Below are positions 1 through 53,144 of a stretch of 64,000 nucleotides of DNA, piece after piece. The DNA comes from a virus (taxonomy: Duplodnaviria > Caudoviricetes). The position numbers were made by a program, and so were the translations under genes. The DNA is taken from positions 1 to 64,000 of IMG/VR virus record IMGVR_UViG_3300030372_004521; one strand, 5' to 3'. The number at the start of each line of letters is the position of its first letter. Position 1 is the stretch's first letter. The notes under the pieces are model-generated. The model saw only the letters and a program-made list of their open reading frames with translations, was not told the DNA's origin and did not search any database.

Positions 1-263
1 ACACTTACACCTTACGGAGATAAGACAGGTTCATCTGCCCCAACAGGACACGTAGCCGCAAGTTCAAGAGTTGTATTAGTACAAAATGCTAGTGGCCAAG
101 TTGGTATTAATGATATTTCACCATCAGACACACTTGATGTAAATGGATCAGTTAGTTTAAAAAATACTAGTGCTACAGCAACAAACTATATTCACATGCC
201 TAGAGGTGGTGGAATTACTTTTTATGGTGATGCTAATCAACATCATGGTATCTTCTCAAGAAA
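1..263 (+). repeat. Direct repeat copy A (matches 45291..45553)
   Basis: First 95 nt identical to 45291-45385; 7 mismatches over 263 nt (at 96,148,181,190,198,206,249), then divergence. Confidence 0.95.
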
Positions 264-759
264 CCTAGTAAATACTGCAGCAGACGATATTTTAATTAGC
301 TCTTATGGTTCTATATATTTTGATTTAGATTCAAATTCAAACAATTCATCTAGTGCAGACTTTGTTGTTGGCAGACATAATTCAAATGGTGGTAATAGAC
401 TTAATCTTAATGGAGAAGATGGCGACCTTATAGTAGCAGGTAATATGACAGCTTATGGTTCAGCTTCAGATTTAAGATTAAAAGAAAATATAGTCACAAT
501 AGAAAATCCATTAGATAAAGTTTCTCAACTTAGAGGTGTAACCTTTAATTACAAAGAAGATGGCTCAAAATCAACAGGTCTTATTGCTCAAGAACTAGAA
601 AAAGTCTTACCTGAAGTGGTGTATGAGACTGAAGATATTAATGATGCTGATGACAAATTTAAAGCTGTAAGATACGGTAATGTTGTTGGGCTTTTAGTTG
701 AAGCTATTAAAGAGTTGAAAGCAGAAGTAGAAGAACTAAAAAAGATAAAAAATGCCTAA
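1..759 (+). CDS. Tail fibre C-terminus with intramolecular chaperone (Peptidase S74) domain; 5'-partial, continues 39111..45290 on the circle
   Basis: Frame open from base 1 (TLTPYGDK...), the same peptide as the fibre at 45291; SD.RLKENI...GLIAQELEKVLPEVV...Y..VVGLLVEAIKEL is the S74 chaperone signature. Confidence 0.9.
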   Translation, partial: TLTPYGDKTGSSAPTGHVAASSRVVLVQNASGQVGINDISPSDTLDVNGSVSLKNTSATATNYIHMPRGGGITFYGDANQHHGIFSRNLVNTAADDILISSYGSIYFDLDSNSNNSSSADFVVGRHNSNGGNRLNLNGEDGDLIVAGNMTAYGSASDLRLKENIVTIENPLDKVSQLRGVTFNYKEDGSKSTGLIAQELEKVLPEVVYETEDINDADDKFKAVRYGNVVGLLVEAIKELKAEVEELKKIKNA

Positions 760-1280: not shown

Positions 1281-1289
1281 TGGTATAAT
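1281..1289 (+). promoter_or_regulatory. Extended -10 promoter (TGgTATAAT) 8 nt before ATG 1298
   Basis: Perfect TATAAT at 1284-1289; same TATAAT-N8-ATG in the second copy at 46721. Confidence 0.6.
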
Positions 1290-1297
1290 TTTCAATT

Positions 1298-1636
1298 ATG
1301 GCAATAAGTTATACATGGGATACAAAACAACACGAATACTATCCCACACACAATAGTAAAACCAAAGTCGTTCATACTGTACATTGGAGATTACTAGCAA
1401 CTGATTCAGATAAAGATGAAAACGGTGTTAATTATACAGCCGAAACTTATGGTGCTTGTGCTTTAGATACATCTGATTTATCTAACTGGGTGGCTTATGG
1501 AAGTGTAAATGCAACCAAAACCCAAGAATGGGTAGAAGCTACACTAGGTTCTACAGAGGTGGCTAGTATGAAATCAGCTTTAGATGCTAAAATTGCAGGA
1601 ATAAAATCTCCTTCTAGTGTAAATACTAGTTTTTAG
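1298..1636 (+). CDS. Conserved phage protein (fibre-associated), first gene of cassette copy 1
   Basis: 112 aa, 98/112 identical to 46735..47073. Confidence 0.8.
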   Translation: MAISYTWDTKQHEYYPTHNSKTKVVHTVHWRLLATDSDKDENGVNYTAETYGACALDTSDLSNWVAYGSVNATKTQEWVEATLGSTEVASMKSALDAKIAGIKSPSSVNTSF

Positions 1637-1644
1637 TTTTGTAG

Positions 1645-1995
1645 ATGAATGAAGTAGTTACTATTATTCAACAAGTAGGTTTTCCTATAGCTGCGGCTTT
1701 AGGTCTAGGATGGTTCATTTTTAAATTAATAATGAGAATTGTTGATGGAATGGAAACAAAATTAGATGTTGTTGATGAAAAAGTAGCAGAACAAATAACA
1801 GCTATGGAACAAAGACTAGGTACTAAGTTAGATGGACAGCATGGTATTTTAGTGGCACTAATAGATAGAGTACGTTCTCTTGACAATGAAATCATAAGAC
1901 AAGATACTCTGATAAAGACAATTTTGGGTGTGCCACAATTAATTGACAGTAACAAAATTGCAAAGGCTGACAGAGATGATCAAAGAAAAGACTAA
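1645..1995 (+). CDS. Single-TM coiled-coil membrane protein (holin/antiholin-like)
   Basis: N-terminal TM (GFPIAAALGLGWFIF) then coiled coil; homolog at 47102 with the same C-terminus KIAKADRDDQRKD. Confidence 0.65.
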   Translation: MNEVVTIIQQVGFPIAAALGLGWFIFKLIMRIVDGMETKLDVVDEKVAEQITAMEQRLGTKLDGQHGILVALIDRVRSLDNEIIRQDTLIKTILGVPQLIDSNKIAKADRDDQRKD

Positions 1996-2467
1996 TGATT
2001 TTTTAAAATACTATAAAAGTAAAAAAGGATGTGTAGTTTTACTACTTCCATTATTAGTTTTGCCCGTTTTAGCAGATAAAATGGTACATAAGTTTAAAAG
2101 TCCTAGCTTCAGTGGTGAAAATCAATCAGCACACTATCTAACGATAGAAAACCAAGAATTTAACCGTAAACAAGCTATAAAAGCTGAAATTGAAGCATAT
2201 CAAGACGAATTAGCTAGAGAAGCAGAAAATACGACACTAGCGAGGTTCATAAGAAACTTAGAGTCTAGAATTTATGCACAATTATCTAGACAATTAGTAG
2301 ATGCTCTATTTGGGGAAACACCTAGTACAAGTGGTATTTTAGAACTTATGGGAAATACTATTGAGTACTCTGTAAGTGAAGATGGTTTAATGATAACTTT
2401 AAGGATAACTGACTCAGATGGTAACACGACCGAAATTACTGTGCCTATTGGTTCTTTTACTTTCTAG
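1976..2467 (+). CDS. csgF: Curli assembly protein CsgF-like
   Basis: Signal peptide then MVHKFKSPSFSG...HYLTIENQE; F...LESRIYAQLSRQLV..LFGE...G...L.GNTIEY...ITD..G.TTEI.VP matches the CsgF pattern; ATG 1976 is positionally equivalent to ATG 47433. Confidence 0.85.
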   Translation: MIKEKTNDFLKYYKSKKGCVVLLLPLLVLPVLADKMVHKFKSPSFSGENQSAHYLTIENQEFNRKQAIKAEIEAYQDELAREAENTTLARFIRNLESRIYAQLSRQLVDALFGETPSTSGILELMGNTIEYSVSEDGLMITLRITDSDGNTTEITVPIGSFTF

Positions 2468-3236
2468 TTGTACTAGTTTTTTAATAGACCCATTAGATAA
2501 CAATATAATACCTATAGCTAAACCTGAACCTGCAGAGGTTCTTGATTTATTTACACCTGAATTAGCATCAATTCCTGCTCCTGAGAAGAAACTGTCTGTT
2601 GCTATCTATCCACAATCATTTACAGATCAAACAGGCCAAAGACTTAGTAATTCTATGTATGCAAGTTTCTCAACAGCTATAACACAAGCACCAAATACAT
2701 ATTTAATAAGAGCTTTAAGCCGAGCAGGTAGTGATAATGGTGGTTTCTTTGATGTAGTAGAAAGAATAGGTTTAGATTCTTTAACGAAAGAAAGGCAGAT
2801 CATTAGATCAACTAGAGAAGCATTTGAAGTAGATGAAAATTTGTCTCCATTACAATTTGCAGGTTTACTCATAGAGGGTGCAGTGGTAGGATATGAAAGT
2901 AACACACAAAGTGGTGGACAAGGCGCACGATATATGGGGATAGGAATGTCCAAGCAATATCGGATGGATACTGTAACGGTATCTTTGCGTTTAGTTTCTG
3001 TAAGCACAGGAGTAGTTTTATTAGATGTCTTAACTAGTAAGACGATTTACTCGGCTTCAATTAGTCAAGATGTCTTTCGCTTTCGGGCAAAAGGAACAAA
3101 GCTCGTAGAAATAGAGGGTGGTAATGTTCGTAATGAATCCACCAACTTAGCTCTACAAATGGCAATAGAAACAGCTGTTATTGATCTTATTGAACAAGGC
3201 GAAGAAAAAGGTTTTTGGAGTTATAAACAATTATGA
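2418..3236 (+). CDS. csgG: Curli secretion pore lipoprotein CsgG-like
   Basis: Lipobox LLSSC; F.DQTGQR, FSTAITQ, F.VVER.GLD.L.KERQIIR, GG.GARY.GIG.SKQYR.D.VTVSLR.VSV.TG, NES...A.Q.AIE.AV..LI..G...G.W are CsgG motifs. Confidence 0.92.
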   Translation: MVTRPKLLCLLVLLLSSCTSFLIDPLDNNIIPIAKPEPAEVLDLFTPELASIPAPEKKLSVAIYPQSFTDQTGQRLSNSMYASFSTAITQAPNTYLIRALSRAGSDNGGFFDVVERIGLDSLTKERQIIRSTREAFEVDENLSPLQFAGLLIEGAVVGYESNTQSGGQGARYMGIGMSKQYRMDTVTVSLRLVSVSTGVVLLDVLTSKTIYSASISQDVFRFRAKGTKLVEIEGGNVRNESTNLALQMAIETAVIDLIEQGEEKGFWSYKQL

Positions 3237-3931
3237 AAAAATTATTTTTACTAATGTTAAGTTTGAATGTCATAGCTGATAATGAAATTTACATAAACCA
3301 AGCAGGAGCAACATTAAATCTAGATGTTGAGCAATTAGGAAGCTCAAATATCATAGGTGGAGATGATGCTATCAGTGGTTCAATGACTGCATTTAATTTG
3401 ACAGGCGCTACAATGACACTTGACATCAACCAACTCGGAGATTCAAACAAATTTCTAGGAGATATTATTGCTGATTCATTTACAGGTTTTTTTGAATTTA
3501 ATGGAGATAGCAATACATTCACTATACAAGTTGATCCAACAAATACATATGGTGCTGATAGTAGTGATATTAACGTTGATGTAAGTGGTGGTAGTAATGA
3601 CTTTACTTTAAATGTAGGAACATCTGCTCTAGCAAGTACTTTAGACCTAGACTGGGTTATAAACGGAGAAAGCAATACATTAGATTTTGATATAAATTCT
3701 GATACAGCTACATCTTTCGTAGATATTGATGGTGATGATAACACTATTACATTTGACGGAACTGGTTATGCTGATGGGTATTTCTATTTAGATCAAACAG
3801 GTGATGATAGGACATTTAACATTACACAAAGCTCAACTCTTGCTTCTGACTGGCTCAAAATCATTACTAGTGGTAATGGTGGCTCTGTCTGTATCATACA
3901 AGACGATTCAGGCGGAAACACTTCCTGCTAA
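3233..3931 (+). CDS. Secreted curlin-like (CsgA/CsgB-like) beta-solenoid protein
   Basis: Signal peptide, then ~22-aa repeats with Q.G..N / G.SN turns (NEIYINQAG, EQLGSSN, NQLGDSN, NGDSN, SGGSN, NGESN, DGDDN, DQTGDD); terminal Cys pair; adjacent to csgG. Confidence 0.75.
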   Translation: MKKLFLLMLSLNVIADNEIYINQAGATLNLDVEQLGSSNIIGGDDAISGSMTAFNLTGATMTLDINQLGDSNKFLGDIIADSFTGFFEFNGDSNTFTIQVDPTNTYGADSSDINVDVSGGSNDFTLNVGTSALASTLDLDWVINGESNTLDFDINSDTATSFVDIDGDDNTITFDGTGYADGYFYLDQTGDDRTFNITQSSTLASDWLKIITSGNGGSVCIIQDDSGGNTSC

Positions 3932-4958
3932 TATTGGAAATATATTTGAGTTAAGAGGTAATGCAAAAGTTATAAGAGATAAAGACTATGATGCTGAATT
4001 AAAATTTGGCATCAGGTCTTTAGATGATGTAAGAACAAGTAACGGTAGAGTTGCTATAACATTTCTTGATGATTCTACTGTAAGAATAACTGAACATTCA
4101 AAACTCATCATAAATGAATATATTTATGACCCAAATCCATCTAAATCTAAAGTATCACTAAACTTTGCAAGTGGAACTCTTAAATTTGTTACGGGTAAAC
4201 TTGCTTCTATAGATAAAGAAAACATATCAATCAAAACCCCAAGTGCAGACATCTCAATTCGTGGCACATCATTCACAACGACAGTAGATGAATTAGGACG
4301 TAGTTTAATAATATTATTGCCTGATGAAAATGGACTACCTAGTGGTGAGATAGTTGTTAGTACTCTTGCAGGTTCAGTAGTTTTAAATCAACCATATCAA
4401 GCTACCACAACAAATGTATATGAGACACCACCATCAAAACCCGTAATACTTGATTTAAACGCAAATTTAATAAATAACATGCTCATAGTATCACCACCTA
4501 AAAAGCAGGTCGTAGTAGAGGAAACATACACAAATACAGTAAGCGACCCTCTAGACTTTTTAGAGCTTGATATAGATTACTTAAATGAGGACTTTCTTGA
4601 TGCTGAGTCTGAGCTTGATTTTACTGAATTAGATATAGACTACCTTGATGTCAATTTCTTTGAAGATTTACTAGATATAATAGATGAAATAGATCAATTA
4701 AATGATGATGAACTAGAGTCACAATTTGCTAACAATATTGTTCAAGGCACAAATCTTGGACAAGACTTAGAAACCAATATAACAACAATACTTACTGGCG
4801 ATACTATTTCTTTACGTAGAACGGTAAATCAAAGTGTACAACTAGACTTAGATAGTGGTCTTGCTTATACGGTCATATTCATACAAGATGGTAAGAGTAA
4901 TCAGATTATTGTAAATGGGGGTGGAACATCAAGAATAAGAATTATACAAAGCTCTTAA
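3801..4958 (+). CDS. FecR-domain periplasmic protein with acidic repeat and C-terminal beta region (start uncertain)
   Basis: D.VRT.NGRV.I.F.DDS.V...EHS.L.I.EY.YDP...L....GT..F..G......I.TP.A.I.IRGT.F is the FecR pattern; hydrophobic N-terminus overlaps the curlin gene. Confidence 0.85.
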   Translation: MMIGHLTLHKAQLLLLTGSKSLLVVMVALSVSYKTIQAETLPANIGNIFELRGNAKVIRDKDYDAELKFGIRSLDDVRTSNGRVAITFLDDSTVRITEHSKLIINEYIYDPNPSKSKVSLNFASGTLKFVTGKLASIDKENISIKTPSADISIRGTSFTTTVDELGRSLIILLPDENGLPSGEIVVSTLAGSVVLNQPYQATTTNVYETPPSKPVILDLNANLINNMLIVSPPKKQVVVEETYTNTVSDPLDFLELDIDYLNEDFLDAESELDFTELDIDYLDVNFFEDLLDIIDEIDQLNDDELESQFANNIVQGTNLGQDLETNITTILTGDTISLRRTVNQSVQLDLDSGLAYTVIFIQDGKSNQIIVNGGGTSRIRIIQSS

Positions 4959-6742
4959 TAATACCTTTATTAGCAATATTAGTTATTCCTTTATTATTCC
5001 AATATAAAGCACTTGATATATTAAAGTTAAAAACCTTTGATACTTTTGTTGAAACCCCTGAACCATCAGGATATTTTACAATTTTAAATATTACAGAAAA
5101 TGATGTTAGAAATGAGGGTGGGTGGCCTTTCCCAAGACAACGATTAGCAGAAATACAAAGACAACTTGAAAGAAATGGTGCTATTGGTGTAGGATGGGTA
5201 GTGTCATTCATAGATGAGGACAGATTTGGTGGCGATGACACTTTCATAGATTCTATTGACCAAATTGCTACAGTTGTCGCCACATTTTCTTCAGATACCA
5301 ATATTTTCCCTAAACCAACTGGCACTGTAATTCTTGGTGAAGAATCTACAGGAATACCAATAAACGGTTATATACCAAACATTCCAAAGATTTCAAATAG
5401 CATGATAGAGGGCATGGTTTCTGCTCCGATAGACTCAGATGGTTTGGTTCGCAGACTACCACTTTTATATAAAATTCCTGATGGGTGGACACCTAGTTTT
5501 GCAACCCAAGTGCTTAAGACACTGGTAGGCGCTGATACTTACATAATTAAGACGAATGAAGCAGGGATAGAGGAGATAAAAGTACAAGGACTTCCAGAGA
5601 CAAAGGTGGACAGTTTAGGTCGTAAGTGGATTTCTTGGGTAGATACTCCTGAAATTTCATTAATGGAAATGGAAAATGGAATGGGTGTTCAAGATATTCA
5701 GGGCAAATTTGTTTTTGTTGGTGTAACAGCTAAAGGTGTAATGCCACAATTATCTACAAGTAGTGGTGAGTTATTAGAACCTCATAAGATACAAGCTGCA
5801 CTAGCTGAATCTATACTGGTAAAGAACAGTCCAGTCATTCCATATTGGCATTTAGCTCTAGAATTAGCAATTTTTGTAATTTCAGGGCTTCTTATTTGGC
5901 TTCTAACGCAATATTTCGGACTTACCCTTAGTGTTACTATGGGTGTTTTAGTGATGATCTCTACTGCTTCATATGGATATTGGAGTATAAAACAGGGAAT
6001 ACTAATAGATGTTACTTGGTCATTAATAGGTCAGTTTATTATTGCTTCTACTAGTTTCTATTTTAGGTTTAGAGAACAATTCAAGTTAAGACAACAGATT
6101 AAAAAACAATTTGAGCATTACTTAGACCCACGTCAGGTTAAACGGTTACAAAACAATCCTGAATTATTGAAACTAGGTGGAGAGAAAAGATATTGTACTT
6201 ATATGTTCACTGATGTACGTGGTTTCACTCCATTAACAGAGAAACTTAAACCTGAAGAAGTAACGTACATAATGAATAAAGTATTAACTATTCAAGCAAA
6301 TGCTGTCAAAGAGTCTGAGGGTATGGTAGATAAATATATAGGTGATGCCATGATGGCTTGTTGGAATGCACCTCTAGATGTTGAAGAACATGAGAATAAA
6401 GCAATAGACACAGCAATTGAAATAATTTTAGGCATAAGGGAATTAAACAAAGAGCTTAAAATGCAGAGACTTCCAAAAATAAAAGTAGGTATAGGAATAA
6501 ACTCAGGTGAAGCTATTGTCGGTAACATGGGTTCTGAAGATAGATTTGAGTTTACAAGTCTAGGAGACCCAGTAAATTTATGTGCCCGTTTAGAGTCAAG
6601 TACTAAAGAACAACAGGTAGATATACTCATTGGTGAATCTACTCAAAATAATACTTCCTATAATTTAACAAAATTAGATGATATTATGGTCAAAGGTAAG
6701 AGTAAGCCAATTGGGGTTTACACATATGAGGTAAGAAAATGA
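4958..6742 (+). CDS. CHASE2-domain membrane class III adenylate cyclase (non-canonical start; ORF track start 5201 truncates the conserved N-terminus)
   Basis: Frame open from 4901; LKLKTFD..EPSGYFTILNITE..GG.P.PR..LAE conserved with 50390; D.DG.VRR.PL; three TM helices; catalytic MFTDVRGFT, DKYIGDA, FTSLGDPVNLCARLE. Confidence 0.9.
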   Translation: MIPLLAILVIPLLFQYKALDILKLKTFDTFVETPEPSGYFTILNITENDVRNEGGWPFPRQRLAEIQRQLERNGAIGVGWVVSFIDEDRFGGDDTFIDSIDQIATVVATFSSDTNIFPKPTGTVILGEESTGIPINGYIPNIPKISNSMIEGMVSAPIDSDGLVRRLPLLYKIPDGWTPSFATQVLKTLVGADTYIIKTNEAGIEEIKVQGLPETKVDSLGRKWISWVDTPEISLMEMENGMGVQDIQGKFVFVGVTAKGVMPQLSTSSGELLEPHKIQAALAESILVKNSPVIPYWHLALELAIFVISGLLIWLLTQYFGLTLSVTMGVLVMISTASYGYWSIKQGILIDVTWSLIGQFIIASTSFYFRFREQFKLRQQIKKQFEHYLDPRQVKRLQNNPELLKLGGEKRYCTYMFTDVRGFTPLTEKLKPEEVTYIMNKVLTIQANAVKESEGMVDKYIGDAMMACWNAPLDVEEHENKAIDTAIEIILGIRELNKELKMQRLPKIKVGIGINSGEAIVGNMGSEDRFEFTSLGDPVNLCARLESSTKEQQVDILIGESTQNNTSYNLTKLDDIMVKGKSKPIGVYTYEVRK

Positions 6743-7218
6743 AAGAATTACTTAGTAATATAATTGGTGCAGTAGCGCCAACTCTAGGAACAGCATTAGG
6801 TGGCCCGTTAGGTGGTATGGCTAGTAATGTTATATGTGATGTTTTAGGTTGTCCTAACAATCCTAAAGCTATAGAAAAAGCAGTTGCAGAAGCAACACCT
6901 GAAGATTTAGCTAAGATCAAAGAAGCTGAACTCAAGTTTGAAGCTGAAATGAAAAAACTTGATGTGGACATTTTTGCTCTTGAAACAGCAGATAAACAAG
7001 ATGCAAGAAAAGCATTTAGTAAAGACTGGACAGCTAGAATTATAGGTGTAGCTACCATTGGTGGCTTTCTTGGTTATATATTTTTAGTAACTTTACAACC
7101 ACCTGAACAGAACTCAGAGGCACTTATTAACCTAGTTTTAGGTTATTTAGGGGGTTTAGCTAGTGCCATAATTTCTTTTTACTTTGGAGCATCACATACT
7201 TCCAAAGATAAAGATTAA
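6739..7218 (+). CDS. Holin (3-TM, GTA-holin-like)
   Basis: APTLGTALGGPLGG N-terminus, D.QDAR motif, two C-terminal TMs ending ISFYFGAS; upstream of nuclease and lysozyme. Confidence 0.7.
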   Translation: MKELLSNIIGAVAPTLGTALGGPLGGMASNVICDVLGCPNNPKAIEKAVAEATPEDLAKIKEAELKFEAEMKKLDVDIFALETADKQDARKAFSKDWTARIIGVATIGGFLGYIFLVTLQPPEQNSEALINLVLGYLGGLASAIISFYFGASHTSKDKD

Positions 7219-7432: not shown

Positions 7433-7840
7433 ATGTCTGAACCTTTTGTCTATAACTGCTCATTAGTAAGAGTCATTGATGGTGACACTATTGATGTAGA
7501 TATAGACTTGGGGTTCGGTGTGTGGTTAAAAAAACAACGCGTAAGACTAGCAGGTATTGATACTCCTGAGTCAAGAACAAGAAATTTAAAAGAAAAAGCA
7601 TTAGGTCTAAAAGCTAAAGACAGATTAATTGAACTATGTACTGGAGCTTTTAAGGTCAAATCATTAGGTAAAGGTAAATATGGCAGAATACTTGGTATCC
7701 CTTATACGGAAGGTAACAAAGATATACTCGGAAGTAGTAAAGACATTTGCAAAATCCTTGTACAAGAGGGTCATGCAGTTGAATATTGGGGTGGTACTAA
7801 AAAAGCCAAAGTCAGAGAAGACGGAACATGGGGAGAATAA
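7433..7840 (+). CDS. Staphylococcal nuclease (thermonuclease)-like protein
   Basis: RVIDGDT, RVRLAGIDTPE, GKYGRILG motifs; homolog at 53145. Confidence 0.88.
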   Translation: MSEPFVYNCSLVRVIDGDTIDVDIDLGFGVWLKKQRVRLAGIDTPESRTRNLKEKALGLKAKDRLIELCTGAFKVKSLGKGKYGRILGIPYTEGNKDILGSSKDICKILVQEGHAVEYWGGTKKAKVREDGTWGE

Positions 7841-7841
7841 C

Positions 7842-8285
7842 ATGGAAATATCACAAGAAGGAAAATCACTTATTAAGAAATTTGAGGGTTGTCGTTTAGA
7901 AGCATACAAATGCCAAGCAAACGTTTGGACGTGTGGATGGGGCGCAACTAGAGATGTAAAAGAGGGAGATACTTGGTCTCAATCTTATGCTGATGAAAGG
8001 TTTGATGGGGATATAGTTGAGTTTGAAAATTATGTAAATGATCTAGTAAAAGTGCCATTACATCAATATCAGTTTGATTCTATTGTCGCATGGACATTTA
8101 ACTTGGGCCCAACAAATTTAAAAGAATCTACTCTATTAAAAGAGTTAAACAAAACGAATTATGAGGAAGTGCCATATCAGATTAAAAGATGGAATAAAGC
8201 AGGTGGAGAAATATCAAAAGGTCTAATAAGACGTAGAGAAGCCGAAGCACTTTTATTTGAGGGTAAAGAATGGCATGAGGTCTAA
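7842..8285 (+). CDS. Endolysin, phage lysozyme (GH24)
   Basis: MEISQEG..LIKKFEG.RL.AY.C..NVWTCG.G, QFD..V...FNLG, GL..RR.AE..LF; true start ATG 7842 after GGAG. Confidence 0.92.
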   Translation: MEISQEGKSLIKKFEGCRLEAYKCQANVWTCGWGATRDVKEGDTWSQSYADERFDGDIVEFENYVNDLVKVPLHQYQFDSIVAWTFNLGPTNLKESTLLKELNKTNYEEVPYQIKRWNKAGGEISKGLIRRREAEALLFEGKEWHEV

Positions 8286-42100: not shown

Positions 42101-45100
42101 TGATGGTACTGAGGTTATAACAAGTTCAAGAAACTTAACCAATATAGGAACTATAGCTAGTGGCAATATTACAGTTACAGGTAGTGTAACAATATCAGCT
42201 GATTTAACAGTAAGTGGCACAACCACAACGATAGATACCACAAACTTAGATGTTAAAGATAAAAATATCACTTTGAATTATGGATCAGGCGATACTTCAT
42301 CTAATGCTGATGGTGCAGGAATAACTATTCAAGATGCTGTAGATGCATCAACAAATGCAACTTTCACATGGAATGCAAGTGATGATAATTTTGAACTTTC
42401 ACATGGTTTAGATTTTGGTGATAGTGCAAAAATAAGACTAGGTACAGACAATGATTTACAAATTTACCATGATGGTAGTAATGCAAGAATAAGAGAAATA
42501 ACAGGTGAGCTTAGATTACAAACTACATCTAGTGGTGTTAATGCTTTAGTTGCGAAATCAAATGCAGCAGTAGAGCTTTATCATGCAGGTTCAAAAAAAT
42601 TAGAAACATCAAGTAGTGGTATAGATGTTACAGGAAATGTAAGTCTTACAGGTGATGTAACCATATCAAATGCAGGACCAACATTATATTTAACTGATAC
42701 TGATAACAACCCTGATTGGCAGATCAAAAATGGTAATGGTAATTTAAGGTTTATTGATGCAACAAATTCCGTTGATGTTCTTACTCTAACAAGTAGTGAT
42801 GTCACTATAGATGCAGGTGGAGACATTATTCTTGATGCAGATGGTCAAGATGTTATTTTTAAAGATGGTGGGACACAGTTTGGCTCTATAAGAAAGAATG
42901 GCAACAATATTCAACTTATGGCTTCTATAGAAGATGGCGATATTACATTTCATGGTGATGATGGTGGTTCAGCTATTACAGCTATGGCAATTGATATGTC
43001 TGCTGGTGGAAATGTAGGTATCGGCACTACAAGTCCAACAGGTAAGTTAAATATAGTAAGTGGTTCTTCAGGTAGTTATTTAGTAAATTTAGATTATAAC
43101 GATGGTACTGATGGGGGTGGGTTCTATCAATCAGGTTCAACAGGTTTATCACTATTTCTTAAAAATTCTTCAGCTACACAAACAGTACAAATAGCTACAG
43201 CAGGTGATAGTTACTTTAATGGTGGTAATGTAGGAATTGGCACTTCTTCACCAACAGCTAAATTACATATACATAATACATCTACTACTTCAGATGGAGA
43301 TGGAACAGCAGACGAATCACCAACAGGTCAAGATAGTATTTTGCTTTACGGTCATGGGGGTACAAACGGTCAAACTTACGGGGGTATAACTTGGTTAGGT
43401 GGTAGTAGGAGACGTGCCATGATAAGTGCTGTTGCCGAAAATACTGATACTGATTTTGTAGGATTAGCATTCTATACTCAAGGGACTGACGGTTCAGGTG
43501 ATTTTAATGAATCAATGCGTATAGCTCGTGATGGTGATGTGGGAATCGGAACTCAAAGTCCGAGTTTTTCAGCAGGTTCAGGTTTAGAAATAAGCAGAGC
43601 AGGTCCAGCGACTTTAAGACTAGAAGATACAGATGGTACAACAGGTGCAACAGAATTGGTCCAAGTTGATGCAGACGGTTATTTATTAACAAGACAAAGT
43701 AGTAGTGCTTTAATTTTTGGAATTAATAGCTCTGAGAAAATGAGGCTAGCTTCTTCAGGAGACGTTGGGATCGGTACTTCCTCACCTGATAGATTATTAA
43801 CTCTGCAAGGAGATAATTCTTATATGTGGATGAAAGATGCAGGTGGTGGTAATGTAGCTTTTATTGGGGGAGATGGTGCTAATGATGGATTTATAAGACT
43901 TTATAATGGTAGTCATTCAGCAAAAGTAGAAATTCAAAGTGATGGCGATACATATTTTAATGGTGGAGATGTGGGTATTGGTTCTTCCTCACCTGAAGAA
44001 AAACTACACGTCTCAGGAAACATATTGCTTGATGATGGCGATCCTAGATTATATTTTCAAACAGGTTCATCACATTATAATTGGAAAATAGCAGCACAAG
44101 ATTCAACAAACAAAGGTTTTGAAATATCAAGTGGGGCTGCTGATGGTGATGCTAATAGTGATACTTATACCCCAAGAATAGTTATAGAAGCTGATACAGG
44201 AGATGTGGGAATTGGTACAACAGCACCTGCATCTCCACTTCATGTTGAAACAGCAGACGATCAAATAGCAGATTTTTATTCAACTGATACTGATGGTTAT
44301 ATCAGGGTTAGAGATTCAAATGATAGTCTATATGTTTCTTCTGATAATGCAGTAGGTTCATTTGGGGGTAATGCAGGGGCTAATGCTAATAATATAAACA
44401 TAAGTTTGACAAGTGGTGCTGTGGGAATCGGCACTACCTCGCCAAGCTCGTCACTTCATGTAGCAAAAGCAAACGCAGCTTTAGGTTTTGATGCAGGTTT
44501 ATGGATTAGCAGTAATCCAAGTGATTATACTGCAGGTAGAGGTGGTGGTATTACTTTCCAAAATGTTGATGTATATACAGCAGGAATTTATGGATTAAGA
44601 GAGACATCAAGTTGGGAAGGGGCTTTAGCTTTTTATACTCATACTGACGGAAGTGGAAATACTTTTGGCTCAACCTTTACAGAAAAAATGAGACTGACTA
44701 ATGAAGGTCGTTTAGGAATCGGCACAACCTCACCTTCATATGCATTACATATAACATCTGCTTCTGATGGCATAAATATAAGTGGTTCAAGTGCATTTGT
44801 TAGATGGAACTCAGGAGATATGCAAATTAGAAATGCAGGTTCTTATTCTATGGCTTTTGATACTTATGATGGTTCAGCTTTAACAGAAAAAATGACCATT
44901 GATACTCAAGGTAATGTTAAAGTTTCAAAAGGTGGTATATCTTATGATGGCGAGGGTAAGATTTACTCTTGGAGAGCTCAAAACAATGCGGGAAATGCTA
45001 GTAATTACACAAAAATAGCATCAGTTTCAGGTTCACATAGCACAAGATTCTATATAAATCTATATGGTAGAAGTCAGGGTTACTCAGATGGAGTATTAGG

Positions 45101-46562
45101 GGCTATGGCTACTATAGTTGGTCAGATAAATAACGACAATAATATTGACCTAATGTATTACAACTTTTTTGCTGATGATGATGCTATTAATGGAGCAGGT
45201 CATGTTGATACTGGAAGTTGTACAGCAGACATATATGTTCAAACAGGCACTTATTCAGAATTGGTGGCACAAGGTGGAATCTCAGATGGAACACTTACAC
45301 CTTACGGAGATAAGACAGGTTCATCTGCCCCAACAGGACACGTAGCCGCAAGTTCAAGAGTTGTATTAGTACAAAATGCTAGTGGACAAGTTGGTATTAA
45401 TGATATTTCACCATCAGACACACTTGATGTAAATGGAACAGTTAGTTTAAAAAATACTAGTGCTACAGCAGCAAACTATGTTCACATACCTAGAGCTGGT
45501 GGAATTACTTTTTATGGTGATGCTAATCAACATCATGGCATCTTCTCAAGAAATCAAAGCAATAGTTCAGCAGATGATCTTATGATTACCTCTTATGGAG
45601 CGGTTTATATTGATTTAGATTCAAATGATAATAATAGTTCAGGTGCAGACTTTGTTATAGGTAAACATAATAGCACTAGTAATGATTTGTTCTTTGTTAA
45701 TGGAGAAAATGGTAATGTTGGAATAGGCACTTCTTCACCTGCACAAAAACTACATATTAAAGACACTAGCAATCCAGCTTCACCTAATGGCTCAGTAATT
45801 ATAGAAGGTCAAAGAGATGGTACTGCTAACTTAATGGAACTAAGAGCAAGAGACCATTCATCAACAAGCTCTGCTTTACCTAATGGACAAGGTGGAATTA
45901 TAAGAATGAATGGCTTTGACGGTACTGACTTTGAAGAAATGGCTTTTATCGGCTATCAAGCTGATGGTGCCGCAGTAGCTGACGGAGATGCCCCTAGTAG
46001 ATTAATATTTGGAACTACGACAGATGGTTCAGGTGTAGTAACAGAAAAAATGAGGATAGATAATGCAGGAAATGTCGGAATCGGAACAACCTCACCTAAT
46101 AAAGAATTAACTGTTATTGGTGATATTTCGTCAACAGGGACCGTATCTTGTGCAACCATATCTAAATTATCAGGATCATTTAAAATAGACCACCCACTAA
46201 AACCAAAAACACATTCTCTAGTTCATTCATTTGTTGAAAGCCCACAAGCTGATAACCTATATACTGGTGAAATCGAACTTAAAGAAGGTAAAGCAGAAAT
46301 TAATTTAGATGAATGGTTTGGAATGACAGAAGGAACAATAGTTGCTCTTAATAGAGATTTTAGAGTATTTACTACTAATGAATCAGATTGGGATAATGTT
46401 AAAGGTAAAATACAAAACAATATTTTAACTGTTTACTCTCAAAATGAAAAATCAACTGCTAAAGTTTCTTGGATGGTTGTGGGAGAAAGACAAGATAAAG
46501 AAATATATGAATCTGATTTAACTAATAGTGAAGGTAAAATTATAGTAGAACCAGAAAAGTGA
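39111..46562 (+). CDS. Central tail tip (J-like) protein fused to FN3 domains and a long modular fibre; C-terminus after ~45550 probably belongs to the second phage
   Basis: PR.IVYG..RVGG, G.K.YDPR, NPAL...D.L, FN3-like SW.NP.D.DL and YY.W.RAVD.SGN.S; about 11 G(N/D)VGIGT.SP-type repeats; ends SGSFKIDHP. Confidence 0.88.
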   Translation: MSKATREAIKMTIIAGLALATGNLLFAEAAVFTLTSGQILQTIVVGVATQIAVSYSRGLDSNSANFGSKIVRQDPIAPRQIVYGKTRVGGNVVFMDTTGTDNSELHLVVAIAGHEINSVEKIFVNDVELTSTTSTINSETVHTVTNTHFTNTENDYTTFGSGRLMRFTTELGADNQESNGYLVNNTSFTTDHDLKGIAYVYFHMIYDREKLGRLPQMQFEVKGKKLYDPRSTETAWTDSSGKDIGRNPALIARDILTDTRYGVKATTGTNGEINDSTDAGGFANAANACEVSITDGSGGTENKYVADGFSHMSTNQADILAGIMGSCAGKISYANGQFGMFVGVAQTPSLTITDDDLISELQIQNATAQGMVFNTVKAVYVNSANDYVSSDAPIRNAGTNPSGSGESYLATDTPTGGTQANFRQTFEMKLPFVTSQTQAQRLSKLALDYQRRTKMVTVSTSLKFLRVQPSDWVYLTNSRMGWTNKVFEVLSAKVDTTTEGSLFCSLQLKEIDSNVFAFVANDYIVGQADGSLGDSGGFTLGAPTLASDGLSEVVYNDNGTAKIALDVTWTNSSSAGIGATEIQWRLGGSFGTPTSVAEVSPDINTFRIPDMIAGQTVYVRVRHTNSTQLGTFSTTRSRTIAGDTTAPSVPTSLSVSTGLPQMRISWVNPSDTDLRSIKIYRRTANTDPTDDTYLVATVSGEPAKAMDVVQGASDGLSYNTTYYFWLRAVDFSGNQSNFTSSANGSFARIGDGDFQGSGGSTYRQSQAGNNNAPTDSAFNSSFGRLPRNNDVLVSTNTTNKESIAYKYSGQTSGSAGGGGSFSDLGFFLTGDLIGLEGEGVQDVISNTTTGNQGAITFNKHTQKMQTYGNYEADTDFLPTIDLYSQRKTGGQTSGGSGEGKSGSLTFSTNLWSSSSGNLAAEETIGGIYMDMNSRTEGFGNNSTNPSAKMLFKLIQAPVLSGNDYNNYTILELDRHNGSHLNSGLDIDPNITDHALKIDGTEVITSSRNLTNIGTIASGNITVTGSVTISADLTVSGTTTTIDTTNLDVKDKNITLNYGSGDTSSNADGAGITIQDAVDASTNATFTWNASDDNFELSHGLDFGDSAKIRLGTDNDLQIYHDGSNARIREITGELRLQTTSSGVNALVAKSNAAVELYHAGSKKLETSSSGIDVTGNVSLTGDVTISNAGPTLYLTDTDNNPDWQIKNGNGNLRFIDATNSVDVLTLTSSDVTIDAGGDIILDADGQDVIFKDGGTQFGSIRKNGNNIQLMASIEDGDITFHGDDGGSAITAMAIDMSAGGNVGIGTTSPTGKLNIVSGSSGSYLVNLDYNDGTDGGGFYQSGSTGLSLFLKNSSATQTVQIATAGDSYFNGGNVGIGTSSPTAKLHIHNTSTTSDGDGTADESPTGQDSILLYGHGGTNGQTYGGITWLGGSRRRAMISAVAENTDTDFVGLAFYTQGTDGSGDFNESMRIARDGDVGIGTQSPSFSAGSGLEISRAGPATLRLEDTDGTTGATELVQVDADGYLLTRQSSSALIFGINSSEKMRLASSGDVGIGTSSPDRLLTLQGDNSYMWMKDAGGGNVAFIGGDGANDGFIRLYNGSHSAKVEIQSDGDTYFNGGDVGIGSSSPEEKLHVSGNILLDDGDPRLYFQTGSSHYNWKIAAQDSTNKGFEISSGAADGDANSDTYTPRIVIEADTGDVGIGTTAPASPLHVETADDQIADFYSTDTDGYIRVRDSNDSLYVSSDNAVGSFGGNAGANANNINISLTSGAVGIGTTSPSSSLHVAKANAALGFDAGLWISSNPSDYTAGRGGGITFQNVDVYTAGIYGLRETSSWEGALAFYTHTDGSGNTFGSTFTEKMRLTNEGRLGIGTTSPSYALHITSASDGINISGSSAFVRWNSGDMQIRNAGSYSMAFDTYDGSALTEKMTIDTQGNVKVSKGGISYDGEGKIYSWRAQNNAGNASNYTKIASVSGSHSTRFYINLYGRSQGYSDGVLGAMATIVGQINNDNNIDLMYYNFFADDDAINGAGHVDTGSCTADIYVQTGTYSELVAQGGISDGTLTPYGDKTGSSAPTGHVAASSRVVLVQNASGQVGINDISPSDTLDVNGTVSLKNTSATAANYVHIPRAGGITFYGDANQHHGIFSRNQSNSSADDLMITSYGAVYIDLDSNDNNSSGADFVIGKHNSTSNDLFFVNGENGNVGIGTSSPAQKLHIKDTSNPASPNGSVIIEGQRDGTANLMELRARDHSSTSSALPNGQGGIIRMNGFDGTDFEEMAFIGYQADGAAVADGDAPSRLIFGTTTDGSGVVTEKMRIDNAGNVGIGTTSPNKELTVIGDISSTGTVSCATISKLSGSFKIDHPLKPKTHSLVHSFVESPQADNLYTGEIELKEGKAEINLDEWFGMTEGTIVALNRDFRVFTTNESDWDNVKGKIQNNILTVYSQNEKSTAKVSWMVVGERQDKEIYESDLTNSEGKIIVEPEK
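45291..45553 (+). repeat. Direct repeat copy B (matches 1..263); closes a 45,290-bp circle
   Basis: Direct nucleotide comparison; same reading frame. Confidence 0.95.
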
Positions 46563-46714
46563 ATTTAGAAGAAGAAATAAATAAGCTTAAATTAGATGTA
46601 GAAAGTCTTAAAAAAGATTCACACCCACCCAAAGGATTATTAGATCTTGATGGTGCAGCAGAATTAATAAAAAAAATTTCAAAATTGGAAGATTTAATTT
46701 ATAAAGCACAATAA
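46559..46714 (+). CDS. Small coiled-coil protein, 51 aa, not in ORF track
   Basis: GTGA overlap with the fibre stop; MNLEEEINKLKLDVESLKKDSHPPK... Confidence 0.6.
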   Translation: MNLEEEINKLKLDVESLKKDSHPPKGLLDLDGAAELIKKISKLEDLIYKAQ

Positions 46715-46720
46715 ATAGAG

Positions 46721-46734: not shown

Positions 46735-47073
46735 ATGGCAATAAGTTATACATGGAATACAAAACAACACGAATACTATCCAACTCATAATAGTAAAACA
46801 AAAGTCGTTCATACTGTTCATTGGAGATTATTGGCAACTGATTCAGATAAAGATGAAAACGGTGTTAATTATACAGCCGAAACTTATGGTGCTTGCAGTC
46901 TGGACACTTCTGATCTATCTAGTTGGGTAGCTTATGGAAGTGTAGATGAGGCTAAAACTCAAGCCTGGGTAGAAGCTACATTAGGTTCTACAGAGGTGGC
47001 TAGTGTTAAGTCAGGTCTAGATGCTCAAATTGCAGGAATAAAATCACCTACAAGCGTAAGTGCTAGCCTTTAA
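46735..47073 (+). CDS. Conserved phage protein, first gene of cassette copy 2
   Basis: 98/112 identical to 1298..1636. Confidence 0.8.
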   Translation: MAISYTWNTKQHEYYPTHNSKTKVVHTVHWRLLATDSDKDENGVNYTAETYGACSLDTSDLSSWVAYGSVDEAKTQAWVEATLGSTEVASVKSGLDAQIAGIKSPTSVSASL

Positions 47074-47101: not shown

Positions 47102-47452
47102 ATGGAGCAAGCAGTCTCAATAATAACGGAGTTGGGCTTCCCAATAGCAGCGGCTTTTGGTCTAGGAATATTTGTTTGGAAATTAATAATGAAAATTATT
47201 AATGGAATGGAACAAAAATTAGACACCCTAGATGAAAAAGTTAAAACAAGTTTAGATACTATGGAGGAAAGAGTTTCAACAAAACTTGATACTCAGTATG
47301 GGATTATTGTATCTTTAATTGATAGGGTAAGAGCCTTAGATAATCAAACGATTAGACAAGATGTTCTGTTAAAAACATTATTAGGAGTCCCTAATTTAAT
47401 TGATATAGAGAAAATAGCAAAGGCAGATAGAGATGACCAAAGGAAAGATTAG
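47102..47452 (+). CDS. Single-TM coiled-coil membrane protein
   Basis: Homolog of 1645..1995. Confidence 0.65.
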   Translation: MEQAVSIITELGFPIAAAFGLGIFVWKLIMKIINGMEQKLDTLDEKVKTSLDTMEERVSTKLDTQYGIIVSLIDRVRALDNQTIRQDVLLKTLLGVPNLIDIEKIAKADRDDQRKD

Positions 47453-53140: not shown

Positions 53141-53144
53141 TCTC

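What the first reader, a model, noticed from the sequence alone, without database searches (positions are those of the whole stretch)
1284..7218. Phage-borne curli pore + curlin + FecR + CHASE2 adenylate cyclase cassette: candidate trans-envelope sensing/cAMP system next to lysis genes
Seen: the order [112-aa gene]-[TM coiled coil]-csgF-csgG-curlin-like-FecR-CHASE2/cyclase-holin occurs twice (1298-7218 and 46735-52611), in a siphovirus and in a podovirus-like phage, intact and diverged. The cyclase keeps both metal-binding Asp (FTD, IGD), the Asn/Arg of VN..ARLE and the Lys/Thr pair of ATP-specific class IIIb cyclases. No CsgE, CsgD or CsgC is recognisable. Established: csgF/csgG have been reported in marine T4-like myophages (pelagimyophages, OM43 phage Melnitz) with unknown function. 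In Sinorhizobium the CHASE2 cyclase CyaK needs the FecR-domain outer-membrane protein NsrA to perceive signal. Inference: the CsgG/F pore and its curlin-like cargo act as the outer-membrane input, FecR as the periplasmic relay and the CHASE2 cyclase as the output. The infected cell could then sense an external cue (superinfecting phage, cell contact, nutrient) and change cAMP, for example to tune lysis timing through the adjacent holin or to reprogram CRP-dependent host metabolism.
Basis: partly seen in the sequence, partly recalled or inferred. Interest (0 to 1): 0.92.

Follow-up and report, generated by a model that had tools for sequence, protein, structure and literature searches.

The report
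Known phage curli–cyclase module, twice
Two marine phage genomes that an assembler strung into one record each carry the already published 'viral curli' gene module, whose FecR-like and CHASE2 cyclase genes look like a bacterial-type envelope sensor pair whose function is still untested.

Summary
Both stretches (1298-7218 and 46735-52611) encode DUF7936, a small membrane coiled-coil protein, CsgF, CsgG, a curlin-like beta-solenoid, a secreted FecR-domain protein, a CHASE2 class III cyclase with intact catalytic residues, and a holin-like protein. The copies are 54-88% identical and under purifying selection.

The cassette occurs twice because the 91,881-base record is a walk through two phage genomes, a roughly 45-kb siphovirus and a roughly 49-kb podovirus-like phage. 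They share part of a tail-fibre gene.

The module is not new. HTVC008M and Melnitz carry and annotate it. Wittmers et al. 2022 (PMC9599517) described "HK"-CsgF-CsgG-CsgA/B-FecR-(CsgA/B)-adenylate cyclase in pelagiphage podoviruses and myoviruses. New here are a siphovirus carrier, frequent placement beside lysis genes, the "HK" having no kinase domain, and FecR plus CHASE2 read as a sensor pair. Six of 20 bacterial CHASE2 loci had a FecR-domain neighbour; none had CsgG.

In related phage contigs FecR follows CsgG in 59 of 59 and the cyclase is present in 31 of 33, so FecR is tied more tightly to the pore than to the cyclase. Coupling to lysis timing is unproven.

The parts
1..759 (+). C-terminal end of the siphovirus tail-fibre gene (context). 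Bases 1-95 are an exact copy of 45291-45385, in the same codon phase.
1298..1636 (+). DUF7936 protein, 112 aa, with no export signal. It is 88% identical to copy 2. It probably travels with the shared tail-fibre module and is not a cassette member.
1645..1995 (+). Small membrane protein, 116 aa: N-terminal hydrophobic helix followed by a coiled coil. It is the gene in the position of the 'HK' of the published module and has no kinase domain.
1943..2467 (+). CsgF homologue, copy 1. The ORF runs from a TTG at 1943; the start is probably the ATG at 1976. It has a signal peptide.
2418..3236 (+). CsgG homologue, copy 1, a lipoprotein with an LSSC lipobox.
3233..3931 (+). Curlin-like secreted beta-solenoid protein, copy 1. 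It has Q-x-G-x-x-N repeats and two C-terminal Cys.
3801..4958 (+). Secreted FecR-domain protein, copy 1: signal peptide, FecR beta-sandwich, acidic linker, C-terminal beta domain.
4901..6742 (+). CHASE2 class III cyclase, copy 1. The frame is open from 4901; the start is probably the ATC at 4928; the first ATG/GTG/TTG is only at 5201.
6739..7218 (+). Holin-like membrane protein, 159 aa. Its start overlaps the cyclase stop by 4 bases.
7433..8285 (+). Context: SNase homologue (7433-7840) and endolysin (7680-8285, phrog_7 E=6.8e-54).
42617..45385 (+). Stretch of the 2483-aa tail-fibre gene (39111-46562) that both phage genomes run through. The record's last 77 bases equal 42617-42693 and its first 95 bases equal 45291-45385.
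46735..47073 (+). DUF7936 protein, copy 2.
47102..47452 (+). Small membrane coiled-coil protein, copy 2 (phrog_18771, function unknown).
47433..47873 (+). CsgF homologue, copy 2.
47818..48708 (+). CsgG homologue, copy 2, with an LTGC lipobox. It aligns to E. coli CsgG (4UV2) at E=3.7e-41.
48641..49360 (+). Curlin-like beta-solenoid, copy 2. AF2 model: pLDDT 76, all beta.
49233..50390 (+). Secreted FecR-domain protein, copy 2. It matches phrog_37870 (E=7.7e-71), and its core has the fold of the periplasmic domains of FecR/PupR-type regulators.
50390..52126 (+). CHASE2 class III cyclase, copy 2, 578 aa. The Lys/Thr specificity pair points to an adenylate cyclase.
52135..52611 (+). Holin-like membrane protein, copy 2 (phrog_1544, function unknown).

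Best explanation
These are two members of the already described marine-phage 'viral curli / type VIII secretion' module. One lies in a roughly 45-kb siphovirus and the other in a roughly 49-kb podovirus-like phage, and the assembler joined the two genomes into one record.

Every conserved cassette protein is targeted to the cell envelope. A small inner-membrane coiled-coil protein comes first. CsgG (an outer-membrane lipoprotein channel) and CsgF (its second constriction) build a pore. A curlin-like beta-solenoid is the likely exported cargo. A signal-peptide-bearing protein follows, with a FecR-type beta-sandwich, a disordered linker of about 85 residues that is 30% acidic, and a small C-terminal beta domain. 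Last comes an inner-membrane CHASE2 receptor fused to a class IIIb adenylate cyclase.

My committed reading is that late in infection the phage installs this set as one envelope-spanning unit. The FecR-domain protein belongs to the CsgG/F-curlin assembly and also acts as the periplasmic partner of the CHASE2 domain, as FecR-domain proteins appear to do beside bacterial CHASE2 cyclases. The state of the outer-membrane assembly is thereby reported as cAMP to host targets.

Shown: gene content, intactness, co-conservation, purifying selection, catalytic residues, export signals, and bacterial FecR-CHASE2 adjacency. Inferred: every physical contact, the nucleotide made, the signal sensed, and the downstream target.
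For: Families and residues.

Export signals: all cassette proteins have an N-terminal hydrophobic signal or anchor, and only DUF7936 lacks one.

Selection: pN is 0.22-0.31 against a saturated pS of 0.66-0.77 for every cassette gene.

Co-conservation: in the 80 best of 595 confirmed CsgG loci, the small TM protein is present in 62 of 62, CsgF in 65 of 65, curlin-like in 65 of 65, FecR in 59 of 59 and the cyclase in 31 of 33. FecR lies upstream of the cyclase in 11 of 11 cyclase-seeded loci that have upstream sequence.

Same order in myophages: HTVC008M and Melnitz.

FecR protein: the core matches PupR and BDI_1681 periplasmic domains (Foldseek E=3e-4 to 1e-3). The linker is 30-31% Asp+Glu.

Bacterial context: 6 of 20 bacterial CHASE2 loci have a FecR-domain ORF nearby, and 19 of those 20 are CHASE2 cyclases. 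Campylobacterota CHASE2 cyclases cluster with a FecR-domain outer-membrane protein (PMC9239204, passage). In S. meliloti, CHASE2 cyclases sense a signal through the outer-membrane protein NsrA (PMC13001267, passage).

Pore: Phe56 of the E. coli CsgG constriction loop is kept.
Against: No experiment or fold supports any contact.

Three related loci (L080, L092, L025) keep CsgF-CsgG-curlin-FecR without a cyclase. The FecR protein therefore works without the phage cyclase in some phages.

None of the 20 bacterial CHASE2 loci had CsgG, CsgF or a curlin-like gene. The coupling of the two halves thus has no bacterial precedent in that sample.

No cNMP-binding protein is encoded in the record, so any receptor must be the host's, and the host is unknown.

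The FecR C-terminal domain shows no profile similarity to the curlin-like protein.

The cyclase domain also matches Pycsar cyclase models (E=5.4e-23), so the product is not proven to be cAMP.
Confidence: 0.45

Rival explanations
1. This is a curli-fibre machine. CsgG/F export the curlin-like protein, which polymerises on the infected cell. The fibres cause aggregation ('sibling capture') or shield the cell against superinfecting phages. FecR and the cyclase are only regulators. This is the reading of Wittmers et al. and Zaragoza-Solas et al.
For: CsgG, CsgF and a curlin-like protein are always together. The best structural match of the curlin-like model by Z is a curli subunit CsgA (8C50, Z 16.9, 21% identity). 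A second gene in L006 is a clear Curlin_rpt protein (E=3.3e-15). The published hypotheses are in PMC9599517 (passages).
Against: Both cassettes in this window lack the second, clear curlin-repeat gene. The curlin-like protein scores only marginally for Curlin_rpt. CsgE and CsgC are absent. Buchholz et al. report no clumping of Melnitz-infected cells (PMC9004378, passage). A secreted FecR protein without an anti-sigma domain cannot regulate transcription in the FecR manner.
Confidence: 0.25
2. This is a lysis device. The CsgG/F channel, with the small membrane protein, is part of the lysis cassette: a regulated outer-membrane or envelope pore that times or completes lysis. This is the proposal of Buchholz et al.
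For: The cassette abuts holin-like or endolysin genes in both window copies. The same holds in 13 of 17 related loci with enough flank on both sides. The copy-1 holin-like start overlaps the cyclase stop. In L013 spanin-like genes follow the cyclase. The nearest named Atlas clusters for the small membrane protein are holin and releasin families, but at 0.87-0.88 they are leads only.
Against: In HTVC008M and Melnitz the module lies between replication genes and tail/baseplate genes, and no lysis gene is annotated in the stretches viewed. In small phages, sitting near lysis genes may only reflect the usual site for accessory late genes between tail and lysis genes. A curlin-like cargo, a FecR protein and a cyclase are not needed for a pore.
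Confidence: 0.12
3. These are two unrelated accessory units that merely travel together: a CsgG/F-curlin unit, and a FecR/CHASE2 cyclase unit copied from a bacterial sensor pair. There is no functional coupling between them.
For: Bacterial FecR-CHASE2 pairs occur without CsgG (0 of 20 with CsgG). The cyclase can be lost (L080, L092, L025) or inverted (L014, L119) without loss of the rest.
Against: FecR stays with CsgG in 59 of 59 loci, even where the cyclase is lost. The fixed order recurs in phages with unrelated head and tail gene sets. Genes overlap without intergenic gaps.
Confidence: 0.13
4. The cyclase makes a nucleotide other than cAMP, or makes cAMP to interfere with host cyclic-nucleotide defence such as Pycsar-type systems.
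For: The cyclase domain matches PycC models of PADLOC (best E=5.4e-23).
Against: The Lys and Thr/Ser specificity pair and the closest solved relatives (Cya2-derived cyclase 6FHT, CyaB 3R5G) point to purine, ATP-type specificity. All class III cyclases resemble PycC. No effector with a cNMP-binding domain is in the record.
Confidence: 0.05

Closest known systems
Pelagiphage 'viral T8SS/curli' module (Wittmers et al. 2022, mSystems, PMC9599517), also carried by Pelagibacter phage HTVC008M and Methylophilales phage Melnitz
   Same: Same genes in the same order: small membrane protein ('HK'), CsgF, CsgG, CsgA/B-like, FecR, adenylate cyclase. The FecR protein is 36-39% and the cyclase 30-32% identical to the myophage proteins. 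No CsgE, CsgC or CsgD.
   Different: The carriers differ. One is a siphovirus with a tape-measure protein. The other is a podovirus-like phage with an integrase and a DnaB helicase. The paper reports HTVC023P-type podoviruses and myoviruses. Both window cassettes lack the second CsgA/B gene. The module sits directly beside holin-like and endolysin genes.
Escherichia coli curli system (CsgG-CsgF channel, CsgA/CsgB fibre, CsgE, CsgC, CsgD)
   Same: CsgG aligns over residues 48-277 to E. coli CsgG (E=3.7e-41) and keeps the DxTGQ...FSTAV loop and Phe56. The CsgF profile is matched from near its N-terminus. The cargo is a beta-solenoid with Q-x-G-x-x-N repeats.
   Different: Constriction residues Tyr51 and Asn55 are replaced by Asn and Thr, with a one-residue insertion. 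CsgE and CsgC are absent. FecR, a CHASE2 cyclase and a small membrane protein are added. The CsgG score of 156 bits is far below the NCBIfam equivalog cut-off of 505.
Bacterial CHASE2 adenylate cyclases with FecR-domain partners (S. meliloti CyaK/CyaD1/CyaD2 with NsrA; Campylobacterota CHASE2 cyclase clusters)
   Same: CHASE2 periplasmic domain, membrane segments and a class III cyclase, with a FecR-domain protein encoded beside it.
   Different: The bacterial FecR-domain neighbours found here are either large (about 1000-1900-aa open frames) or about 150-163-aa open frames, and have no CsgG or CsgF nearby. The phage protein is 385 aa, with an acidic linker and its own C-terminal domain.
FecR/PupR cell-surface-signalling anti-sigma regulators
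   Same: The fold of the periplasmic domain matches (4M0H, 6OVK; TM to target 0.46-0.51; about 150 residues aligned).
   Different: There is no cytoplasmic anti-sigma domain. The N-terminus is a cleavable-looking signal peptide. Calling the protein an 'iron-dependent regulator' is therefore not justified.

Membership tests
Pelagiphage viral T8SS/curli module (Wittmers 2022) | Gene order: small 'HK' gene, CsgF, CsgG, CsgA/B-like, FecR, (second CsgA/B), adenylate cyclase, all on one strand | tested here: met
   Both copies show this order. The second CsgA/B gene is absent in both. The published order is given in passages of PMC9599517.
Pelagiphage viral T8SS/curli module (Wittmers 2022) | Homology of FecR and the cyclase to those of HTVC008M and Melnitz | tested here: met
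   tblastn: FecR E=5e-51 and 1e-42; cyclase E=3e-72 and 3e-54. The FecR protein matches phrog_37870 at E=7.7e-71.
Curli type VIII secretion system (E. coli type) | CsgG outer-membrane lipoprotein channel | tested here: met
   Pfam CsgG E=1.5e-43 and 1e-44. Lipoboxes are present. It aligns to 4UV2.
Curli type VIII secretion system (E. coli type) | CsgF | tested here: met
   Pfam CsgF E=1.5e-15 and 3.4e-17, above the cut-off. There is no phmmer match to solved CsgF chains.
Curli type VIII secretion system (E. coli type) | Curlin-repeat fibre subunit (CsgA/CsgB) | tested here: inconclusive
   Copy 2 reaches 25.2 bits summed, above the 20.7-bit cut-off; copy 1 reaches 11.5 bits. Whole-protein E-values are 0.0085 and 0.27. 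The model's top VIA match is a CsgA (Z 16.9), tied with unrelated beta-helices.
Curli type VIII secretion system (E. coli type) | CsgE periplasmic gate and CsgC chaperone | tested here: not met
   No match in the whole record at E<=0.1, while the E. coli control rings. CsgD was not searched.
FecR-type anti-sigma regulator | FecR periplasmic domain | tested here: met
   Pfam FecR E=8.9e-11 and 7.6e-10. Foldseek matches to 4M0H and 6OVK.
FecR-type anti-sigma regulator | N-terminal cytoplasmic anti-sigma domain followed by a membrane anchor | tested here: not met
   The FecR domain starts about 40 residues from the N-terminus, preceded only by a short signal-like hydrophobic segment.
FecR-type anti-sigma regulator | Partner ECF sigma factor and TonB-dependent transducer nearby | not tested
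   No search for these was run. None of the ORFs scanned gave such a hit.
CHASE2 receptor class III adenylate cyclase | CHASE2 domain between membrane segments, followed by the cyclase domain | tested here: met
   Domains. Hydrophobic segments at 1-25 and 288-340 of copy 2.
CHASE2 receptor class III adenylate cyclase | Two metal-binding Asp, transition-state Asn and Arg, and a Lys plus Asp/Thr/Ser specificity pair | tested here: met
   D415, D459 and R532 are invariant. K455 and N528 are each present in 9 of 10. The position aligned to Thr of CyaB (3R5G) holds T, S or D. The assignment of roles to these motifs is recalled from the class III literature.
CHASE2 receptor class III adenylate cyclase | Makes cAMP | not testable with these tools
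   Needs an enzyme assay.
Pycsar defence system | Cyclase together with a cNMP-binding effector | tested here: not met
   PycC models match the cyclase domain, but no cNMP_binding domain is in the record.
Histidine kinase (the 'HK' label of the published module) | HisKA and HATPase_c domains | tested here: not met
   The proteins are 116 aa, and 87-93 aa in L006. They give no Pfam, NCBIfam or PHROG hit to any kinase, even at E up to 5. That these genes are the paper's 'HK' is inferred from position only.
Holin (GTA_holin_3TM, PF11351) | Membership of a holin family | tested here: inconclusive
   No Pfam or NCBIfam match. It belongs to phrog_1544, of unknown function. One Atlas cluster at score 0.95 has PF11351 on 11% of its members. 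It has two or three hydrophobic segments and lies next to an endolysin in L009 and L006.

The most novel reading that the evidence does not exclude
The FecR-domain protein is a trans-outer-membrane tether. Its folded FecR domain stays in the periplasm against the CHASE2 domain. Its roughly 85-residue acidic, disordered linker threads the CsgG/F channel, which Buchholz et al. predict to be positively charged inside for Melnitz. Its C-terminal beta domain sits on the cell surface with the curlin-like solenoid. The phage would thus build, from a secretion pore, an outside-in sensor that converts a surface event (contact with another phage or cell, or loss of envelope integrity) into cAMP. The signal would be used late in infection, possibly to time lysis through the adjoining holin-like gene.
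Probability: 0.12. Interest if true: 0.85.

Novelty: new member of a known kind. Interest (0 to 1): 0.35.

Why it matters
The module is very common in marine viromes. At least 595 CsgG loci were confirmed in IMG/VR, and at least 4119 FecR-type proteins were found at E<=1e-5. It gives infected cells an outer-membrane pore and a cyclase, which the cited papers say the cultured hosts (SAR11, OM43) lack.

This window adds a siphovirus and a second podovirus lineage to the known carriers. The module therefore moves between phages with unrelated head and tail genes.

Reading FecR plus CHASE2 as a bacterial-type sensor pair, instead of as an 'iron regulator' plus a separate cyclase, turns a vague 'auxiliary gene' story into assays that can be run in E. 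coli and in the culturable Melnitz and HTVC008M systems. It is not a new kind of system.

Tried and rejected
blastn of the cassette against GenBank phages found nothing. Only the protein-level searches did.

Complex prediction on the FecR domain (residues 40-232) with the CHASE2 domain (residues 20-312) scored 0.00, below the mark, and the controls were not run. There is no verdict either way.

I checked whether the FecR C-terminal domain is a curlin-like rung. hhalign of A2 against A3 gave probability 0.3% over 7 columns, so I dropped the idea.

Foldseek of the curlin-like model against the PDB gave nothing at E<=0.001. The VIA-wide search put a CsgA first, tied with SufD-type beta-helices.

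Promoter and terminator scans were not above shuffles: 32 promoter-like sites against 35.9 expected, and 26 against 30.4. Terminator-like sites were 6 against 3.0 (sd 1.8) and 7 against 3.9 (sd 2.0). I did not use them.

No tRNA or tmRNA was found in the window.

The genome-contig scan with the FecR alignment found only 7 contigs. All carry the phage-type cassette and sit in MAGs titled Pelagibacter (2), Maricaulis (2), Parvibaculum (1) and Neomarinimicrobiota (2 ends of one contig). I treat them as probable binned phage contigs, at most a weak host hint, and not as bacterial operons.

Host: not determined. The portal proteins have only about 30-40% identical relatives among isolates.

Expression: no RNA holder was listed for 42501-52500.

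Cover: in runs X2-X4 the bins 41001-42302 have almost no cover, while cover is present from about 42300 onward. As the tool directs, I record this here only and do not use it as evidence.

cNMP-binding ORFs: two occur in MAG G001 and none in G005. Both MAGs are incomplete, so this says nothing firm.

I did not use the search of protein representatives, and I built no trees.

Supplementary files of papers are closed. Data Set S1 and Fig. S3 of PMC9599517 may list contigs like these, including siphovirus-like ones, and I could not check that.

The NsrA paper (PMC5952392) is not held.

A library search for CHASE2 + phage + curli found 0 papers. PMC9599517 does not contain the word CHASE2. These are the only searches behind my statement that the CHASE2-FecR reading of the phage module is not in print.

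Full report
WHAT IS THERE. On the + strand, 1298-7218 and 46735-52611 hold the same eight genes in the same order. Pfam names six of them in each copy: DUF7936, CsgF, CsgG, FecR, and CHASE2 plus Guanylate_cyc in one protein. The 116-aa second gene has no family. The fifth gene gets only a marginal Curlin_rpt match (E=0.0085 and 25.2 bits summed for copy 2; below the cut-off for copy 1).

The genes abut or overlap with no intergenic gaps. In copy 1 the start of the holin-like gene overlaps the cyclase stop by four bases. The copy-1 cyclase frame is open from 4901, but its first ATG, GTG or TTG is at 5201. The N-terminal 90 residues align well with copy 2, so the start is probably the ATC at 4928, behind a purine-rich stretch.

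The copies are 54-88% identical in protein. Non-synonymous differences are 0.06-0.31 per site, against saturated synonymous differences of 0.35-0.77. Both copies are therefore maintained by selection.

WHY IT OCCURS TWICE. The window is the first 64 kb of a 91,881-base IMG/VR record. Outside the cassette, the two halves share only pieces of a tail-fibre gene and an SNase gene. Each half has its own packaging and head genes.
- Half one: terminase 22515, portal 23823, protease, capsid 27882 and tape measure 34782.
- Half two: terminase 81909, portal or adaptor 83493, capsid 86653, integrase 69532, DnaB helicase 74488, an internal virion protein at 53572 and a tail fibre at 55248.

The record's first 95 bases are an exact copy of 45291-45385. 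Its last 77 bases are an exact copy of 42617-42693. Both lie in the codon phase of the 2483-aa fibre gene.

Public contigs support the join. In run X1, one contig covers 44817-45538 and carries, at 6 of 6 diagnostic positions, the letters of the record's start and not those of 45386-45496. It thus joins the fibre gene to base 1 of the record. Another X1 contig starts exactly at 42617. In run X2, a 3004-base contig bridges 44437-47440, that is, the fibre end into cassette 2.

An independent 42.5-kb contig (L013) has the order tail genes, fibre, cassette, lysis genes, early genes. That is the order of half one once it is closed into a circle.

I conclude that the record is a walk through two genomes. 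One is a siphovirus of about 45.3 kb (1-45290) carrying cassette 1. The other is a podovirus-like phage of about 49.2 kb (42617-91804) carrying cassette 2. They share about 2.7 kb of fibre gene.

HOW CONSERVED IT IS. A cyclase-seeded scan of IMG/VR gave 13 loci. FecR lies upstream of the cyclase in all 11 that have upstream sequence, and the full order is kept in the 8 that reach far enough. In one of them (L014) the cyclase is inverted.

I examined the best 80 (57-82% identity) with HMMs built from my own alignments. Counts are given only for loci long enough to show each gene:

| Gene | Loci with the gene / loci long enough |
|---|---|
| Small membrane protein | 62 of 62 |
| CsgF | 65 of 65 |
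| Curlin-like | 65 of 65 |
| FecR | 59 of 59 |
| Cyclase | 31 of 33 |

These 80 loci are the closest relatives, so they are not an unbiased sample.

DUF7936 occurs in only 3 of 54 loci and has no export signal. I assign it to the shared tail-fibre neighbourhood and not to the cassette.

L080, L092 and the MAG contig L025 have FecR followed directly by lysis genes, with no cyclase. A holin-like or lysozyme gene lies within 3.5 kb upstream or 6 kb downstream of the cassette in 13 of 17 loci with enough flank.

IT IS ALREADY KNOWN. tblastn finds the FecR protein and the cyclase in Pelagibacter phage HTVC008M and in four Melnitz genomes. Their GenBank records annotate CsgF, CsgG, a curlin-associated protein and an adenylate/guanylate cyclase in this order; Melnitz also annotates a FecR domain protein and a second curlin-repeat protein where HTVC008M has two hypothetical proteins.

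Wittmers et al. 2022 (PMC9599517; I read the abstract, section 8 and passages) describe the module as 'HK', CsgF, CsgG, CsgA/B, FecR, second CsgA/B and adenylate cyclase. They found it in nine HTVC023P-type podoviruses and in pelagimyophages, at all 65 GOV2.0 stations, and expressed in metatranscriptomes. They propose transfer between virus families. They call FecR an iron-dependent regulator and never mention CHASE2.

Buchholz et al. 2022 (PMC9004378, passages) propose that the phage CsgGF pore times lysis, and they report no clumping of infected cells. Zaragoza-Solas et al. 2020 (PMC7029224) I saw only in the search listing.

ANATOMY.
- CsgG aligns to E. coli CsgG over residues 48-277. Phe56 of the constriction loop is kept. 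Asn55 is Thr and Tyr51 is Asn, with one extra residue. Both copies have a lipobox.
- The curlin-like protein has a signal peptide, recurring Q-x-G-x-x-N motifs and two C-terminal Cys. It is predicted as an all-beta solenoid (pLDDT 76, pTM 0.71). Its best structural match by Z is a curli subunit CsgA (8C50; Z 16.9, rmsd 9.1, 199 aligned, 21% identity), tied with unrelated beta-helices.
- The FecR protein has a signal-like N-terminus in all relatives. Its core, residues about 85-225, is modelled at pLDDT 61-88 and matches the periplasmic domains of BDI_1681 and PupR. A disordered stretch at 228-314 is 30-31% Asp+Glu and 2-3% Lys+Arg, with LD(I/V)DYL repeats. A small beta domain covers 317-382. 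It has no anti-sigma domain, so it is not a FecR-type transcription regulator.
- The cyclase has an N-terminal membrane segment, a CHASE2 domain, further membrane segments at about 288-340, and a class III catalytic domain. That domain is closest to the Cya2-derived cyclase 6FHT/2W01 and to CyaB 3R5G. It carries Lys where Cya2 has Glu, and Thr where CyaB has Thr.
- The 'HK' is a 116-aa protein with one membrane helix and a coiled coil. No kinase domain is detectable.

THE FecR-CHASE2 LINK. I drew 301 genomes from the class of G001, a MAG titled Candidatus Pelagibacter, so presumably Alphaproteobacteria. Of these, 136 had a CHASE2 match. I fetched the surroundings of 20 of the top-scoring matches, choosing those with enough flanking sequence. 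Nineteen are CHASE2 cyclases. Six have a FecR-domain ORF in the flank, in four cases a roughly 1000-1900-aa open frame. None has CsgG, CsgF or a curlin-like gene. My phage-derived HMMs may miss distant FecR domains, so six is a lower bound.

Published passages agree. Campylobacterota CHASE2 cyclases cluster with a FecR-domain outer-membrane protein. S. meliloti CHASE2 cyclases sense a plant protein through the outer-membrane protein NsrA.

MECHANISM AND ODDS. I am about 95% sure that this is the published module in two new carriers. I put 45% on the reading that it is one envelope-spanning unit, in which the FecR protein links the CsgG/F-curlin assembly to the CHASE2 cyclase and the output is cAMP. 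The rivals are:
- A fibre machine for aggregation or superinfection shielding: 25%.
- Two co-travelling but uncoupled units: 13%.
- A lysis pore: 12%.
- A non-cAMP or anti-defence cyclase: 5%.

The strongest fact against a simple relay is that FecR is kept in 59 of 59 loci while the cyclase can be lost. FecR is therefore first of all a partner of the pore and cargo. No receptor for cAMP is encoded in the record, and the host is unknown.

VERDICT. This is a correct and careful observation of a module that is already in print. The links to the pore and to lysis remain inference. The instance is a new member of a known kind, of moderate interest.

Noticed in passing
window 1-95 and 42617-45385; whole record, 91,881 bases: The IMG/VR record, rated 100% complete, is a walk through two different phage genomes that share about 2.7 kb of a tail-fibre gene. 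Its ends are exact, in-phase copies of internal fibre sequence, and a public contig closes the first genome.
   Followed up: yes
window 4901-5201: The copy-1 cyclase has a conserved N-terminal region but no ATG, GTG or TTG start before 5201. Either the ATC at 4928 is used as a start or there is an assembly error.
   Followed up: partly
L080, L092 (IMG/VR) and L025 (MAG contig): These are natural variants of the module. FecR is followed directly by holin-like or lysozyme genes, and no cyclase is present.
   Followed up: partly
L006:9193-9990: A second curlin gene lies between FecR and the cyclase and is a clear Curlin_rpt protein (E=3.3e-15, six stretches). Both window cassettes lack it.
   Followed up: partly
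L013:11755-12514: Directly after the cyclase come two overlapping genes that look like a spanin pair: a membrane-anchored coiled-coil protein and a lipoprotein with a lipobox. An SNase and an endolysin follow.
   Followed up: no
L021 and L026 (both ends of one 60,834-base contig binned in a Neomarinimicrobiota MAG): The cassette is split over the two contig ends, with curlin and FecR present at both. This is probably a complete circular phage genome that was binned into a bacterial MAG.
   Followed up: no
window 7433-7840 and 53145-53570: Both phages carry a staphylococcal-nuclease homologue just after the cassette: between the holin-like gene and the endolysin in the siphovirus, and before the internal-virion-protein gene in the podovirus-like phage. 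Several relatives have it too.
   Followed up: no
window 47077-47510, 49681-50114 and 52719-53152: In all four laid runs, summed contig depth spikes over the small membrane-protein gene, part of the FecR gene and the 82-aa gene at 52757-53005. These segments seem to be shared by many phages in those samples.
   Followed up: no
window 39111-46562 and record 61201-69447: Two giant ORFs are present: a 2483-aa tail fibre with repeated GIGT-type motifs, and a 2748-aa protein whose C-terminal part matches PHROGs of unknown function (phrog_14770, E=2.3e-122).
   Followed up: no
window 10482-11423 (-) and 18320-19546 (+): The siphovirus carries an amidoligase-like gene and a PAPS-reductase-like gene (phrog_2443 and phrog_2302).
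   Followed up: no
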